From positions 6,264,162-6,328,161 of the forward strand of contig JBNZDD010013689.1 of assembly GCA_050575255.1 (NCBI GenBank): a stretch of 64,000 bases of DNA. Direction: 5' to 3'. Position numbers: made by a program. Source of the DNA: Harriotta raleighana. Taxonomy: Eukaryota. The stretch's first letter is position 1; every line of letters begins with the position of its first letter. Positions 51,901-63,900 of the stretch are shown one piece after another.

Positions 51901-54900
51901 TTTCTATGCTTTGGGAGACACGGAAACTTTTTTGGAGGGGTTCATACAGGAAGTGGCGGGAGAAGAAAGAGCATAGCTGGGAAGTAACGATTCTTTTAAG
52001 GAACTTGGGAAAAGAAAGGGAGTTTGGAGATGGGGCAATATTTGAGAACAGGGATGGGTCCAAGGAAGGTCTTTTGAGGAGAGAGGTGATGGCAGTTGTT
52101 TTTAAGTGGATGGGAATGGTGCCAGTGGACAGGATGGAGTTGATGAGGTCTATGAGTAGAGGGGTAAGAAGATGGAGCTGGGAGGTAAAGAGAGAGATAG
52201 GTATGGGGTTGAAGGAGCAAGGGGAGGGTTCCATGCATGTTAAAGTGGTAATGAGAGATGAGGGGGAGATGGGTTCAATGGTAGAGGGTAACGTGCTTAA
52301 AGGCGAGGAATGAACCAGAGAAGTGGAGAGGCCAAATGATGACTTGGAGATGAGCCAAACCACAACCACAGCAGTTAGGTGTGGTGTATGGGGGAACGTA
52401 TCGCTGTGTAGTGTGGTCTCAGTCAGTGGGGAGGTGTTGCCTGGAGTGATCCAGCTTTTTGTGAGGGCCAAGATTTCAAAGTTTCCATCAACAATTAGGT
52501 AATTGAGGGCTTTTTTGGAATGGGAGCAGACATTTTGATACTGTCTCATTGCATAGTTAAGACATCTCAAACTGCCTCACAGGATATACTGTACTGTAAA
52601 GTTTTGTGCTGAATTGACTATGTTACATGTATAAATTCTGGGCGAAACACGGCAGCGCACAGATAATCATGAATTAAGTGATCAAATTATTATTTAATTA
52701 TTCTCCTCGTGTTGAATGAGGATGCACATACTCTCTCCCCCTGGAGTACACACCCTTAACATATCTAAACAGGCAGATGGGACCTTAGCTTAACGTCTCA
52801 TCTGAAACCAGCAATGCAATACACTCCCAGAACTGCAATGGATTGTCAACCTAGACTATGAGTTCAAAGTCCCAATGTGCAGCTTGAACCCACAATCATG
52901 GAATTCAGAGTGGGGAGTGTTACCAACAAAGCCAATCTGATATCTGAAACAGAAAAGTGAGATACAAGGGAGAAGGAAGAGTGTGTAAAATGACGAATGG
53001 ACAACTTGAATCAAAGCTGTTCAGAGAAGAATTGGCAACATAGAAAGAAAGGCTATCATGATTGGTTGTAAGGGGACAGTTCAGAGAATTGTCTATCCCA
53101 GTATTCCACCCAAGTGTTCAGCTACTGAGGCATTGTTACATTATGCTGGCACATTAATATAATGCACCACAGGACTAAGCCTGGTCAATTGGTTCAAACT
53201 CTTCGTAAAACACGCCAGAAAGATTACGTCTTCTTTACCTGTTGTTTGGTGGATTCTGTTTATTTCAGTTGCTTTCATGTTCAATAAAGGCCTCAACAGA
53301 CGTTGCTCAAGTGTTCCAACATCCCGCAGATCATCCACCTTGAAGATGTAATTGGGAGACAGTGAAATCTGTCGTAGCTCCTCATCGTCTGTATCCCTGG
53401 ATCCAATAGTGAAAGGTGCCACACCAGCATTTTTCAGTGCCAGCGCTGCCTGACCAACATCATCGGAAGACTTGCCAGCAGTTATCAGGATCAGAAACTG
53501 TGGCACGTCTTCCTCGATTCTACTGCCGGCAGGCTTGGTAAATAGGTTAGCTCTGACGAAAGCTAGTGCTTTTCCAGTGTTGGCATTTGGTCCTCCTAAA
53601 ACTGCAAGGTTTCTCACTGCACCCAGGACCTCAGCCTTGGTGGAGTGAGTGTTTAAGAGGAAGTTCACCTTGGGATCATTACTGTACTGTACCACTGAGA
53701 TACGCACTTTCTTCAATCCAACATCCAAGCCTTCAACAAGTTTAATAATGAAGCGTTGGACTACAGGGAAAACACGTCTGAATTTGTTTGATCCATCGAT
53801 GAGGAATACAATGTCTCTCTTGATGGTATCTGGATGTAGAAGAGAACCACATGTTTACCATTTCACCAAGAAAAAATAACCCTAACTCCCTCAAAAAAGT
53901 ATTCTATACTATTCAATGAAATGTAGCTTGGTATAGCAATTTGAACATTGGACTGACTTTGTAGGGACCGAAAGGATTTCTGCCCATTGTGGTTATATTA
54001 TTTTTATTCTTCACAAGCTGGAAGAACAACCCTGTTGGGGGGGAGTTAACTGCATTGAAGTGGTTCCCGGTGTGGAGGGCTCCATATCAGTGCTAGTTGT
54101 TATTGTTGTTATTGTAAGGGAGTCTTCTTGGAGCTTAACTGGTTTCAAGGTGACATCTTTGACAATGGAATGTCAGAATTGAGCCCAATCTTTGTGGTGT
54201 TCACATTCATAATATATATTTTTAAAACAACAAAAATCATGAAGTGGGAGATGAATATACAGTATTTCCCACATCAGCTTGTATGTAAAATACTGCTTGA
54301 TAAGTTCACATTATTGTCTTGCATTTTTCTAATGTTAAATCTCAATCAATAAGCTACAGGACTCCACAAGTCTGGTTCCTGGTCTGCAGCACTCCAACTT
54401 GCCTCATTGGCAGGACATAAAGGACACATTAGTCACTGATCCCTAAGGTCAAGGGGTCTCTAAAGGAAAATACAAATGAATCTTCTCTATTTAGGCTTCA
54501 CAAAATTCCTGCATTTTACTCTGAGCAATCCATGTATGAATAGGAACATGAGAAGGGACTCAATGGTAGGATTCTACACAATACTTAACCTTCATCTCAA
54601 TCCTTACCTTCATCTATCTTTCTCCGGATCTCAGTTAGCTGAACTCTAGTCAGTGTTGACAGAGGAGATTGGAGACGTTGCTCAAGAGTTCCGACATTCC
54701 GCAGATCATCCACCCTGAAGATGTAGTCAGGGGACAATGAAATTAGTTGCAGCTCTTCACTGTCCGCGTCCCTGGATCCGATAGCGAAAGGTGCCACACC
54801 AGTCTGTTTCAGTGCTAGTGCTGCCCGCCCAACATCATCAGTGGACTTGCCAGCAGTGAGCAGGATCAGAAACTGGGGCACGCCTTCCTGGATTCTGCTG

Positions 54901-60900: not shown

Positions 60901-63900
60901 CAATATGCACAGATTATTAATGCTGAAACTATTTATGCCGCCATCCTTCTAAAGAGCAGTTTGTAATCTTCAATGTCTGGTTTACTATCAAAATGAAAAG
61001 CCCAGTCTTAACAATGAGATGACTAGGTCAGCTTATGATGTATGACAAGGTCAGCTTCTGAAGCGTGTTCAATGAGTGTAACATGTCAGGGCTGCGCATG
61101 TACAAATTACAACAGGCACAGCATGATATACATTGCAATAATGTGTTACTGATTTTTAAGTTTCTTGATATTTCTAAATTTGATACCTAGTCTCCCCCCA
61201 CATCCAAGCAATGAATCGCTCCGCCTTTCCCCATCTCCGCAACATTGCCTGACTCCGTCACTACCTCACAACCAAAGCCACTGAAACCCTCATCCATGCC
61301 TTCATTACATCCCAGCTCGACTATGCAATGCCCTGCTTATTGGCCTTCCCAATTCCTCCCTCCACAGGCTGTAGATAATCCAGAACTCTGCGGCCCATGT
61401 CTTCTACCGTTCCAAACTCCATGACCTCCCAGCTCACCCATCCTCACCTGGCTCCCCATCACCCAGAGGATCCAATTCAAGATCCTGGTCCTCACATTCA
61501 AAGCACTTCACAATCTCGCCCCACCCTACATCCGTGACCTTCTAACACTTTACCAACCTGCTCGCCCCATCTGCTCAGCAGGTTCTGGCCTACTCCACGT
61601 CCCTGAACCCATCCACCCCACTATTGGTTGCCGAGCCTTTAGCCACTCTGCCCCCAACTTCTGGAACTCCATCATCCAGTTCCTCCGCCTCGGCCCTCCC
61701 TGGCCTCCTTCATGTCCTGCCTCAAAACTCTCCTTTTCGATGGTCCCACTGGCAACTCTTAAACTCCCACTTCCCTCCCACTCCGTCCCCAGCTCGGGTC
61801 TGACACAGTGACTGTCTAGCACCTTGGGATGCCTTCCTGATTTGAATCAATCAATCAAAACTACATTTATAAAGCGCCTTTCACATTGGGAGGATGTCCC
61901 AAGGCGCTGAACAGTCAAGTAGTGATCAGAGCAGGAGGGGAGAGGTCGGGGGAAGGAAAGTAGGAAAATTGATTGTATATTTGTGGGCGATTTTTGAAAG
62001 GCACTATACAAGTGTAATTTTGTTTTTTTTGTGGTCTCCATGTAGTTTCTTCAACATAAAGAGCCTCCTTACCTTCAAGAATAGTTCTCCGTATCTCGAC
62101 TACCTGATCTCTAGTCAGTGTTGACAGAGGAGATTCAAGACGTTGCTCAAGAGTTCCGACATTCCGCAGATCATCCACCGTGAAGATGTAGTCAGGAGAC
62201 AATGAAATTAGTTGCAGCTCTTCATTGTCTGCGTCCCTGGATCCGATAGCGAAAGGTGCCACACCAGTCTGTTTCAATGCTAGTGCTGCCCGCCCAACAT
62301 CATCGGTGGACTTGCCAGCAGTGAGCAGGATCAGAAACTGGGGCACGCCTTCCTGGATTCTGCTGCCAGCATTAGTTATGAACACCCTCCTCGTGACATA
62401 GCCCAATGCTGCCCCAGTGTTTGCCTGCCTTCCTCCTTTAACTCTGAGTCTTCTTATTGCATCCATCACATCCTGTTTGTTTGAGTGGCTGTTTAACAGG
62501 AAATCAGGTCTGGGATCATCACTGTACTGCACTACACTGACTCTCACTTTGTCACTTCCAATGTCAAGTTTGTCGACCATTCTAGAAATAAAGCTTTGGA
62601 TTGAAGGGAAAGATGATCTAGCTTTCTCTGATCCATCAACCAGGAATACGATATCTCTCTTAGCAGCACCTGGAACACAAAGGGAAATGGATTCCCATTC
62701 ATACACTCCATCTGAAACCTGCAAGTAAAGTCCCTCATAATGTGAGCATTTGGTGGGTATTTGGTGGTCAGCCTGAAGTAATATTCTTCCCAAACAAATG
62801 CATGACATTCTTGAAGCATCAAACTACAGCATAAATTCTTATCATTAGTATGTTTATCAAACCCATGGGGATTGTAAGGTTCTCTTTCAGTTAATGAATC
62901 TGATATCATAACCCTTGTATTTCAGATATCAACCTTGCATGTTGCAGAAACTAGAACAACATAGGTGTGGCCTGAACACAGTACTATATGGTATAGTACC
63001 ATCTCATCCTTCCTGAACACGCACCCTACCATTACTCATTCACAGCATCCAGTTGGTGGCCTCAACCACTTAATATTTTGAAAAATTGGTCACTCACTCC
63101 ATGGCTGTTTGTGGAACTTTGCTGTGCAAACTGGCCCACAAAATACGCAGTCAATCCACTTTACTTGTGAAGTGCTTTGAGGAGGACATGTTAAGGCGCT
63201 ATATCAAATGCAAGTATATTATTATTATTATTATTATAATACCTGCCGAGGCATAATCAGTCTGTCTGACTTGATGAGTGTTCTCAGCGAGTTCTATTTT
63301 CTTCTTATTGCTCACATATGCACGGGGGAGGTGGCCATGAGCATGGTTGAAGAGGAAGGCTTGAAAAGGGGGAGGGGCAGGGGAGCGGCAGAGGGATTGA
63401 GGGAGAATGTTCTGGAGTTTGTGGCAGTCGTGGCTGAAAGCGGGACTCCAATTATGGGGTGGAGGTTGCGAGGGACGAGCAGGAGACCGGAGCCAGGCAA
63501 GCGAAGGCTCCAGGTGGTAGTTTGGGGAGTGAGGAAGTCGGAAAGGCAGGCAGGCAGGCAGTCAGTGAACGAGCAAGCACTGGCCTTTGAAGCCAAGTCA
63601 ATTGACATCATTTCAAAAATATTATCAGTTGACAACATTTTGAGAATAAAGTCAGCATGGAAGACTGAATGGGATTAGATGACTCCGGAGAAGGGGTTGG
63701 CTCTAGTATAGGCACAGATGGCTATCTTCTGTTCTGAAGTTAATAAATTCTAATGCCAGGTTTGTTTAGGACTAAATTAATTCAGTGAACAGATTTGAGT
63801 TAAGTGAACCTCTGAGAATTTCTTAATTCAAGCATTACAGGACACTGAGTTCATCATCTTGGCTGATGCTCCAGGGCAGTGGTAGGGAAATGTTCCATTG

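What the first reader, a model, noticed from the sequence alone, without database searches (positions are those of the whole stretch)
53239..62669. Tandem amplification of one VWA (N4-type) exon: at least five copies, four nearly identical
Seen: four 597-nt exons and one 591-nt exon, all phase 1-1 with intact frames and splice sites, all carrying GVAPF...ISLSP(D/N)YIF and lying directly upstream of the N3 exon. Flanking intron sequence was co-duplicated. Known: human COL6A3 has one such domain (N4), and its N-terminal VWA exons are alternatively spliced. Inference: a lineage-specific expandable array lengthens the alpha-3 N-terminal arm, and symmetric phases allow any subset to be included. 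VWA-exon duplication may already be described in some bony fishes, so recurrence at this exon would suggest a hotspot.
Basis: partly seen in the sequence, partly recalled or inferred. Interest (0 to 1): 0.8.

Follow-up and report, generated by a model that had tools for sequence, protein, structure and literature searches.

The report
Repeated VWA exons in chimaera COL6A3
A chimaera-type fish's collagen VI alpha-3 gene carries four nearly identical copies, plus one older copy, of a single protein-domain exon; related fishes show similar arrays, so it is a real but fairly ordinary case of exon amplification.

Summary
On the minus strand lie five single-exon VWA domains: c1 53239-53829 (591 nt) and c2-c5 (597 nt each). 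All have AG/GT splice sites, open frames and phase 1-1, and sit directly upstream of the N3 exon. c2-c5 are 93-99% identical in DNA. c1 is only 69% identical to them and is an old paralogue with its own 87% orthologue next to N3 in Callorhinchus milii COL6A3. The window is a COL6A3 orthologue from a holocephalan other than C. milii, not human.

Trees place all five copies in a cartilaginous-fish clade nearest to bony-vertebrate N4 (95/91), but N5 is not rejected (AU p=0.28). The array is not private to this lineage: 17 of 17 cartilaginous-fish COL6A3 models carry 4-10 such domains before N3, and copies cluster by species. Exons are far more alike than their introns, and three sites are mosaic. 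This fits an old array kept uniform by unequal crossing-over and gene conversion. dN/dS is about 0.3. Splicing of the copies and copies beyond base 64000 remain untested. I rate it a new member of a known kind, of moderate interest.

The parts
62073..62669 (-). c5: most 5' array copy seen in the window. A 597-nt VWA exon, phase 1-1.
   Evidence: Splice sites and length. Pfam VWA E 4.6e-50. It is 93% identical in DNA to c2-c4. Homology to the other copies ends 20-56 nt outside the exon.
58237..58833 (-). c4: array copy. A 597-nt VWA exon, phase 1-1.
   Evidence: It is 95-96% identical to c2 and c3.
56485..57081 (-). c3: array copy. A 597-nt VWA exon, phase 1-1.
   Evidence: The AlphaFold2 model has pLDDT 90 and matches PDB 4igi/4ihk (collagen VI alpha-3 N5) at TM 0.92-0.96.
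54608..55204 (-). c2: array copy. A 597-nt VWA exon, phase 1-1.
   Evidence: Read by eye. It is 98.7% identical in DNA to c3.
53239..53829 (-). c1: older N4-type paralogue next to N3. A 591-nt VWA exon, phase 1-1.
   Evidence: It is 86.6% identical to C. milii P0337 residues 1650-1843, which directly precede that protein's N3. The clade win_c1 + Cmil_d10 has SH-aLRT 100.
50804..51409 (-). N3 exon (606 nt, phase 1-1). It anchors the array.
   Evidence: (80.6% to C. milii N3).
46299..46913 (-). N2 exon (extent of the tblastn match).
   Evidence: Best PDB matches are 6snk (alpha-3 N2) and domain 8 of 9han_C. It is 90% identical to C. milii.
54465..55707 (-). c2 repeat unit: the exon with co-duplicated intron on both sides.
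   Evidence: 90.4% identical over 1254 nt to 56343-57593.
56081..57593 (-). c3 repeat unit. 56343-57593 is homologous to the c2 unit and 56081-57240 to the c4 unit (57884-58987).
   Evidence: 90.4% and 86.3%; intron-only identities are 72-88%.
59584..61914 (.). Dispersed-repeat (TE-like) insertions that enlarge the c5-c4 intron.
   Evidence: Many 70-88% matches to other parts of the window, on both strands.
55759..56085 (.). Dispersed repeat inserted in the c3-c2 intron. It is absent from the c4-c3 intron.
   Evidence: 75.8% match to window 70-401, plus others.
12534..12722 (-). Kunitz (C5) exon near the 3' end of the same gene (context).
   Evidence: Pfam PF00014, E 2.5e-20. It aligns to C. 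milii residues 3387-3449.
27614..31013 (-). C2 (27614-28456) and C1 (30453-31013) VWA exons of the same gene (context).
   Evidence: Pfam VWA. They are 82% and 88% identical to C. milii.

Best explanation
The window holds the 3' two-thirds of the COL6A3 orthologue of a holocephalan (chimaera-type fish) other than Callorhinchus milii. Directly upstream of the N3 exon lie one old N4-type VWA exon (c1) and a tandem array of at least four near-identical N4-type VWA exons (c2-c5).

Shown: each exon encodes one complete VWA domain with the C-terminal extension seen in the solved N5 domain. All are phase 1-1, intact and under purifying selection.

Inferred: the array is an old feature of cartilaginous-fish COL6A3. 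It grows and shrinks by unequal crossing-over between repeat units, and its exons are kept alike within each species by gene conversion (concerted evolution), while the introns drift and collect transposons.

Inferred from the published N5 structure and microfibril work: each included copy adds one bead to the flexible beads-on-a-string N-terminal arm of the alpha-3 chain that projects from the collagen VI microfibril. Copy number, and possibly exon skipping, would therefore set arm length and the number of binding modules.
For: Exon anatomy.

Gene identity: the window is colinear with C. milii XP_007904071.1 from c-type copies to the Kunitz exon at 70-96% per exon. The match includes N3 80.6%, N2 90.3%, N1 87.2%, C1 88% and C2 81.6%. 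Elasmobranch proteins are only 54-70% identical.

Domain type: the cartilaginous-fish clade of 22 rows has support 99/95 and joins bony-vertebrate N4 at 95/91 (SH-aLRT 90).

Age and spread: 17 of 17 cartilaginous-fish proteins have 4-10 N4-type domains directly before N3. C. milii has five array copies that are 94-99% alike, plus two older paralogues.

Concerted pattern: array copies cluster by species. Support is window 87, C. milii 96, Leucoraja 99, Heptranchias 98, Hemiscyllium 99 and Heterodontus 96. There are 17 fixed amino-acid differences between the window's 4 copies and C. milii's 5 copies.

Exon versus intron: synonymous divergence among c2-c4 is 0.03-0.10, against intron distances of 0.14-0.33. 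For c5, dS is about 0.15 yet intron homology stops 20-56 nt from the exon.

Mosaic sites: exon positions 284, 292 and 530 join c2 with c5, against 10 sites that join c2 with c3.

Selection: dN/dS is 0.26-0.36, with Fisher p from 2.6e-5 to 8e-3 in 5 pairs.

Fold: the c3 model has pLDDT 90 and TM 0.92-0.96 to 4igi/4ihk over 189-191 columns, with a terminal helix at 186-197.

Arm geometry: passages of PMC3919171 and PMC12354898.
Against: The AU test does not reject grouping the clade with N5 instead of N4 (p=0.277, delta lnL 6.5), and the quick tree leaves N4, N5 and the cartilaginous-fish clade unresolved.

Clustering by species and the fixed differences would also arise if each lineage re-amplified a single exon after speciation. 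I had no DNA of another holocephalan to compare introns.

The c2-c4 introns are alignable, so for those three copies a fairly recent duplication with faster intron change is not excluded. Mosaic evidence rests on 3 sites.

Domain counts in other species come from predicted protein models (the C. milii one is flagged LOW QUALITY; several are single isoforms). For 12 of the 17 species the type was assigned by best BLAST hit, not by tree.

No transcript evidence was available, so inclusion of c2-c5 in mRNA and any effect on arm length are inferred. AlphaFold2 has probably seen 4igi, so the fold match is not independent.
Confidence: 0.75

Rival explanations
1. Purely recent, lineage-specific duplication. 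A single N4-type exon next to c1 was amplified to four or more copies after this lineage split from Callorhinchus, with no gene conversion. Other cartilaginous fishes amplified the same exon independently (a hotspot).
For: Copies cluster by species. There are 17 fixed differences between the two holocephalans' arrays. The c2, c3 and c4 units share introns over up to 1.25 kb. Copy order follows similarity: c2-c3 are closest and c5 is furthest.
Against: Intron distances are 1.4 to 7.5 times the synonymous distances of the adjoining exons, and c5 has no alignable intron beyond 20-56 nt although its dS is only about 0.15. Three sites join c2 with c5 against the main tree. An array at the same position in 17 of 17 species would need many independent amplifications.
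Confidence: 0.17
2. The extra copies are unused pseudo-exons: genomic duplicates that are skipped by the spliceosome and do not contribute to the protein.
For: No transcript data were available here. The Ensembl-type model P0094 of C. milii reads through intron sequence, which shows that models of this region can be unreliable.
Against: 5 of 5 copies keep open frames, canonical splice sites and full-length VWA profile matches. dN/dS of 0.26-0.36 is significantly below 1. Predicted proteins of 17 cartilaginous fishes include such copies.
Confidence: 0.05
3. Assembly artefact: haplotypes or mis-joined reads falsely written as tandem copies.
For: Near-identical tandem repeats are prone to assembly errors. 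c2 and c3 exons differ at only 8 of 597 bases.
Against: The units differ by 10-14% overall and by 12-27% in introns. They carry different TE insertions and unit lengths (1375, 1877, 1752 and 3836 nt). Independent assemblies of other species show the same kind of array.
Confidence: 0.03

Closest known systems
Tetrapod COL6A3 N-terminal VWA domains N10-N2 (mouse N5 structure 4igi; N2 structure 6snk; 9han chain C)
   Same: One VWA domain per roughly 600-nt exon. The fold is the same, including the C-terminal extension (TM 0.92-0.96). As in N5, the MIDAS motif is incomplete (passage; D-G-S-[DEN]-K). N2 and N3 are in the same order, followed by the helix, C1, C2, FN3-like and Kunitz.
   Different: Tetrapod rows in my trees have one N4 and one N5 each. 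Here the N4-type is present five or more times, four of them 93-99% alike.
Predicted COL6A3(-like) proteins of other cartilaginous fishes, e.g. C. milii XP_007904071.1 (P0337) and Hemiscyllium ocellatum (P0123)
   Same: They have the same architecture: a run of near-identical N4-type domains, then one or more older N4-type paralogues, then N3, N2 and N1. The C. milii array copies are 83-86% identical to c2-c5, and its d10 is 87% identical to c1.
   Different: Copy numbers differ (4-10 in the models; at least 5 here, cut by the window end). C. milii has an extra old paralogue (d9) between the array and the c1 orthologue, which the window lacks. These arrays exist only as database models. I found no paper that describes them.
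Ray-finned fish col6a3 mega-arrays (e.g. Gasterosteus aculeatus isoform X3 at 7460 aa; Oncorhynchus mykiss; Lepisosteus oculatus)
   Same: The same gene shows tandem amplification of VWA domains: 30-33 domains in teleost models and 24 in gar.
   Different: The amplified type there is nearest to my labelled rows hucho_N7/N8 and bichir_N6/N7 (numbers counted back from N2; those rows fall in the clade that holds tetrapod N5). It is not the N4-type, and N4 is single in gar and paddlefish.
Classic tandem exon arrays under concerted evolution, such as LPA kringle IV-2, nebulin and titin repeats (recalled, not tested here)
   Same: Symmetric-phase exons that each encode one domain. Copies within a species are more alike than copies between species. 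Copy number varies.
   Different: I have no population data on copy-number variation, and no link to a trait is known.

Membership tests
COL6A3 (collagen VI alpha-3 chain) orthologue | Array of N-terminal VWA domains, each on its own symmetric exon | tested here: met
   Seven VWA exons (c5-c1, N3, N2) match PF00092. Phase 1-1 was verified for c1-c5 and N3.
COL6A3 (collagen VI alpha-3 chain) orthologue | Short triple helix on small exons, followed by C1 and C2 VWA domains | tested here: met
   Seven short tblastn matches (eight HSPs of 10-24 aa) to residues 2470-2783 of the C. milii protein, inside its 336-residue Gly-X-Y region 2457-2792. C1 and C2 match PF00092.
COL6A3 (collagen VI alpha-3 chain) orthologue | C-terminal fibronectin type III and Kunitz domains | tested here: met
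   Kunitz PF00014, E 2.5e-20. The fn3 match is weak: E 1.2e-4, 22.6 bits, below the cut-off of 25.
COL6A3 (collagen VI alpha-3 chain) orthologue | Colinear orthology with a named COL6A3 | tested here: met
   All exons found align in order to C. milii XP_007904071.1 at 70-96%.
N4 domain type of COL6A3 | Position directly N-terminal of N3 | tested here: met
   Met for c1 only. c2-c5 occupy the positions where tetrapods have N5-N8.
N4 domain type of COL6A3 | Groups with bony-vertebrate N4 in a domain tree, to the exclusion of N5 and others | tested here: inconclusive
   Grouped with N4 at 95/91 and 90. It is unresolved, and the AU test does not reject N5 (p=0.277). N3, N6 and more distal types are excluded by starred branches.
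VWA domain with collagen VI-type C-terminal extension | [quoted passage not shown] | tested here: met
   The model has pLDDT 90. Its best PDB matches are 4ihk/4igi at rmsd 1.1-1.2 A over 189-191 columns, and it has a helix at 186-197 after helix 167-183. The phmmer match to 4igi covers residues 3-193, E 2e-56. This is a model, not a measured structure.
VWA domain with collagen VI-type C-terminal extension | Complete MIDAS motif (D-x-S-x-S) | tested here: not met
   All five copies read D-G-S-[DEN]-K. The N5 paper says most collagen VI VWA domains also lack a conserved MIDAS (passage), so this does not argue against membership.
Tandem exon array under concerted evolution | Paralogues within a species are more alike than orthologous arrays between species, with the array present in the common ancestor | tested here: met
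   Within-species identity is 91-99% and between-species identity 83-86%. Clades are species-specific in 6 of 6 species. The array lies before N3 in 17 of 17 species.
Tandem exon array under concerted evolution | Direct traces of conversion: exon similarity exceeding neutral flanks, and mosaic sites | tested here: met
   (exon dS 0.03-0.15 against intron 0.14-0.33 or no homology). (3 discordant sites against 10). The site count is small.
Alternatively spliced cassette exons | Transcripts with and without each copy | not testable with these tools
Only the symmetric phase is shown.

The most novel reading that the evidence does not exclude
COL6A3 of cartilaginous fishes carries a VWA exon array that has persisted since before the split of holocephalans from sharks and rays. 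Exon-limited gene conversion continuously homogenises it and its copy number turns over. The N-terminal arm of collagen VI would then be a length-tunable, possibly polymorphic and splice-selectable, matrix element in animals whose skeleton is cartilage. This would be a vertebrate-wide and so far undescribed hotspot that also produced the arrays of 30 or more domains in teleosts.
Probability: 0.3. Interest if true: 0.55.

Novelty: new member of a known kind. Interest (0 to 1): 0.35.

Why it matters
Collagen VI is a major pericellular matrix component, and its alpha-3 N-terminal arm is needed for microfibril assembly (passages seen in PMC12354898 and PMC3919171).

The arm's domain count is apparently not fixed across vertebrates. 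Predicted models show at least 5 N4-type beads here, 4-10 in other cartilaginous fishes, and 30-33 VWA domains overall in some teleosts. This offers a natural series for asking what arm length does.

It also warns annotators that these near-identical exons are real and easily mis-modelled. The evolutionary mechanism (symmetric exons, unequal crossing-over, gene conversion) is textbook. The value therefore lies in the example and its breadth, not in a new principle.

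Tried and rejected
1. The four copies are 93-99% alike and form one clade.

2. Assembly artefact: rejected on intron divergence, different TE content and independent assemblies.

3. Domain labels by PDB scores alone: c1 and c3 both score best on domain 6 (N4 by counting back from N2) of 9han_C (186 and 209 bits). c3 also scores 194 bits on mouse N5 (4igi), so scores alone could not settle N4 against N5. 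I therefore built trees.

4. Best-BLAST labelling against tetrapod anchors gave mixed N4 and N5 labels for shark copies. It was not used for typing against tetrapods.

5. AU test of N5 affinity: inconclusive.

6. Naming the window's species: no protein above 87% identity to the copies appeared.

7. Literature: five searches and passages of five papers gave no description of COL6A3 VWA exon amplification. Subscription-journal papers (for example Gara et al. 2008, cited in PMC3919171) were not searchable.

9. I searched the gene exon by exon.

10. The window is not human. The hit P0049 (a human-named cDNA entry) was kept out of every FASTA file and search that my scripts made.

Full report
WHAT IS THERE. 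The gene lies on the minus strand. Stop-to-stop ORFs, repeat finding and reading the sequence give five exons: c1 53239-53829 (591 nt), c2 54608-55204, c3 56485-57081, c4 58237-58833 and c5 62073-62669 (597 nt each). In 5 of 5 the exon is preceded by a pyrimidine tract ending in CAG and followed by GTAAG or GTAAA. All lengths are multiples of three and all frames are open. The frame places one codon base before and one at the end of each exon, so all are phase 1-1. c2-c5 are 93.3-98.7% identical in DNA. c1 is 69% identical in DNA and 62% in protein to them. The next exon downstream is N3 (50804-51409, phase 1-1), then N2 and part of N1.

WHICH GENE, WHICH ORGANISM. tblastn of Callorhinchus milii XP_007904071.1 (P0337, 3460 aa, named) against the window gives a colinear series. 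It runs from the array copies through c1, N3, N2, N1, seven short helix-region matches, C1, C2, an FN3-like exon and a final exon at 12534-12722. Identities are c1 86.6%, N3 80.6%, N2 90.3%, N1 87.2%, C1 88% and C2 81.6%. The last exon is a Kunitz domain (PF00014, E 2.5e-20). The FN3 match is weak (22.6 bits, cut-off 25). Elasmobranch COL6A3-like proteins are 54-70% identical and mammalian ones lower. The window is therefore the COL6A3 orthologue of a holocephalan that is not C. milii. It is not human. I worked exon by exon throughout and left out any joined, spliced model.

WHICH DOMAIN TYPE. In PDB chain 9han_C (3061 aa), the N2 exon scores best on domain 8 and also on the N2 crystal structure 6snk. 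N3 scores best on domain 7. Both c1 (186 bits) and c3 (209 bits) score best on domain 6, which is N4 counting back from N2. c3 also scores 194 bits on mouse N5 (4igi), so I built trees.

- Tree 1 had 104 VWA domains from 15 named proteins plus the window, using quick IQ-TREE. All five copies fall in a cartilaginous-fish clade (SH-aLRT 96) that is sister to bony-vertebrate N4 (90), with an N5-containing clade next (94).
- Tree 2 had 70 rows and a careful search. The cartilaginous-fish clade has support 99/95 and joins N4 at 95/91.
- An AU test of the alternative (that clade with N5) does not reject it (delta lnL 6.5, p=0.277). Tree 3 (71 rows, quick) leaves N4, N5 and the cartilaginous-fish clade as a polytomy.

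The copies are therefore N4/N5-family, most likely N4, and certainly not a mix of N5-N8 types.

c1 IS A SEPARATE OLD PARALOGUE. c1 pairs with C. milii domain 10, the domain just before its N3, with SH-aLRT 100 and 87% identity. c2-c5 pair with C. milii domains 4-8. Those five copies are 94-99% alike among themselves and 83-86% identical to the window's copies. C. milii also has a domain 9, 53-58% identical to everything else, between its array and the c1 orthologue. It groups with Heptranchias d12 and Leucoraja d10 (95). The window has no such exon; c2 and c1 are separated by only 778 nt.

THE ARRAY IS NOT PRIVATE TO THIS LINEAGE. I examined 17 cartilaginous-fish COL6A3(-like) proteins that contain the triple helix. 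In 17 of 17 there is a run of domains directly before N3 whose best hit in my labelled set is a member of the cartilaginous-fish N4-type clade. Run lengths were:
- 10: Heterodontus, Heptranchias
- 9: Hemiscyllium, Scyliorhinus, Pristis
- 8: Stegostoma, Mustelus, Pristiophorus, Hemitrygon
- 7: C. milii, Chiloscyllium, Cetorhinus, Mobula, Leucoraja
- 6: Narcine
- 4: Rhincodon, Carcharodon

These are predicted models, some of them single isoforms. Typing was by best hit, except for the five species placed in tree 3. A stork protein has one domain of each type. Coelacanth has eight domains between its N6-type and N3-type domains. In one search the one next to N3 groups with bony-vertebrate N4 and the other seven with N5, four of them near-identical. 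Gar and paddlefish have single N4 and N5, and instead amplify a type whose best hits are my rows hucho_N8 and bichir_N6/N7. Counting VWA domains of 140 aa or more gives 33 in Gasterosteus and O. mykiss models, 31 in Pygocentrus, 30 in Triplophysa, 24 in gar, 17 in coelacanth and 11 in stork.

HOW THE COPIES STAY ALIKE. In tree 3 the array copies cluster by species in 6 of 6 species: window 87, C. milii 96, Leucoraja 99, Heptranchias 98, Hemiscyllium 99 and Heterodontus 96. The four window copies and the five C. milii copies differ by 17 fixed residues. Within-species variation sits mostly at the exon ends.

Exons are much more alike than the adjoining introns:
- c2-c3: dS 0.028, against intron distances 0.16 and 0.21
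- c3-c4: dS 0.082, against 0.29 and 0.14
- c2-c4: dS 0.098, against 0.33 and 0.28
- c5 against the others: dS about 0.15, yet alignable intron ends 20-56 nt from the exon and nothing beyond exceeds shuffled controls

Among the four exons, 10 informative sites group c2 with c3. Three sites (positions 284, 292 and 530) group c2 with c5, and none support the third split. Two of the three lie 8 nt apart, and there c3 and c4 share the residues of C. milii. Together this fits an old array in which unequal crossing-over changes copy number and short conversion tracts centred on the exons homogenise them. The rival reading, independent recent amplification in each lineage, explains the clustering by species but not the exon-intron contrast. 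I give it 0.17.

ARE THE COPIES USED? Pairwise dN/dS is 0.26-0.36, significantly below 1 (Fisher p 2.6e-5 to 8e-3 for five pairs). Frames and splice sites are intact. An AlphaFold2 model of c3, made on a 7-row alignment of window exons, has pLDDT 90 and pTM 0.90. It superposes on the collagen VI alpha-3 N5 crystal structures at TM 0.92-0.96 and rmsd 1.1-1.2 A, including a terminal helix. The predictor has probably seen those structures. Passages of PMC3919171 state that this C-terminal extension puts the two termini at opposite ends and allows a near-linear beads-on-a-string array. They also state that N5, like most collagen VI VWA domains, lacks a conserved MIDAS; the copies here read D-G-S-[DEN]-K. 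Passages of PMC12354898 describe the alpha-3 N2-N9 domains as flexible extra density on the microfibril bead, and say that at least five N-terminal domains are needed for assembly. A passage of PMC13188829 lists col6a3 among matrix genes in differentiating catshark cartilage. It is inference, not a result, that each extra exon adds one bead to the arm and that symmetric phases would let any subset be skipped.

KNOWN OR NEW. The arrays are visible in public predicted proteins. Five full-text searches and the passages read found no paper describing VWA exon amplification in COL6A3. The zebrafish collagen VI paper discusses only whole-gene duplications. Subscription-only papers and supplements could not be checked. 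The mechanism is a known kind (symmetric-exon tandem duplication with concerted evolution), so I file this as a new member of a known kind, with interest 0.35.

LIMITS. The window ends 1331 nt upstream of c5, so the copy count is a minimum. Tree 3 is a quick search, and domain counts rest on gene models.

Noticed in passing
window 53830-54607 (intron between c2 and c1): C. milii COL6A3 has an additional, old N4-type domain (d9, residues 1449-1646 of P0337) between its array and the c1 orthologue. Relatives of d9 occur in Heptranchias and Leucoraja. The window has no such exon anywhere, which suggests loss in this lineage or a different exon order.
   Followed up: partly
protein P0009 (C. milii, 1696 aa; not in the window): A more N-terminal part of C. 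milii COL6A3, or of a neighbouring VWA-only gene, holds five near-identical copies of another VWA type (d2, d3, d5, d6, d7), interleaved with a second type present twice (d4, d8). This looks like a second, higher-order exon array.
   Followed up: partly
proteins P0278, P0262, P0264, P0266, P0311: Ray-finned fish col6a3 models carry 24-33 VWA domains and reach 7460 aa. In gar the amplified type is nearest to my rows hucho_N8 and bichir_N6/N7, not to N4. For P0278, P0262, P0264 and P0266 only the domain counts were taken; the type was not determined.
   Followed up: partly
protein P0126 (Rhinoraja longicauda, 2267 aa): This model has six near-identical N2-type domains in tandem and a doubled N4-N3 pair. 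It could be a real amplification of a different exon or an assembly or model artefact.
   Followed up: no
proteins P0303, P0308, P0122 and others: Sharks and rays have long VWA-only models (up to 5182 aa, no collagen Pfam hit) named 'uncharacterized protein col6a3'. Their contig-length field matches that of the collagen-bearing COL6A3-like protein, so they seem to lie on the same contig. They may be a second gene or a split model.
   Followed up: no
window 25703-26398 (+): An intronic ORF encodes a reverse transcriptase fragment (PF00078, E 2.6e-20). This is a retroelement inside the COL6A3 3' region.
   Followed up: yes
window 59584-61914, 55759-56085, 52767-52897: Intron stretches match many other places in the window on both strands at 70-88%. 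They are dispersed repeats that differ between array units.
   Followed up: partly
window 12723-24933: An intron of about 12 kb separates the FN3-like exon from the Kunitz exon. This is much longer than the introns within the VWA array.
   Followed up: no
window exon positions 284, 292, 530 of c2-c5: c2 and c5 share bases here, against the otherwise close c2-c3 pairing. This is a small mosaic patch that fits a short conversion tract.
   Followed up: yes
window 1143 and 8953: Single N positions. They were left as they are.
   Followed up: no
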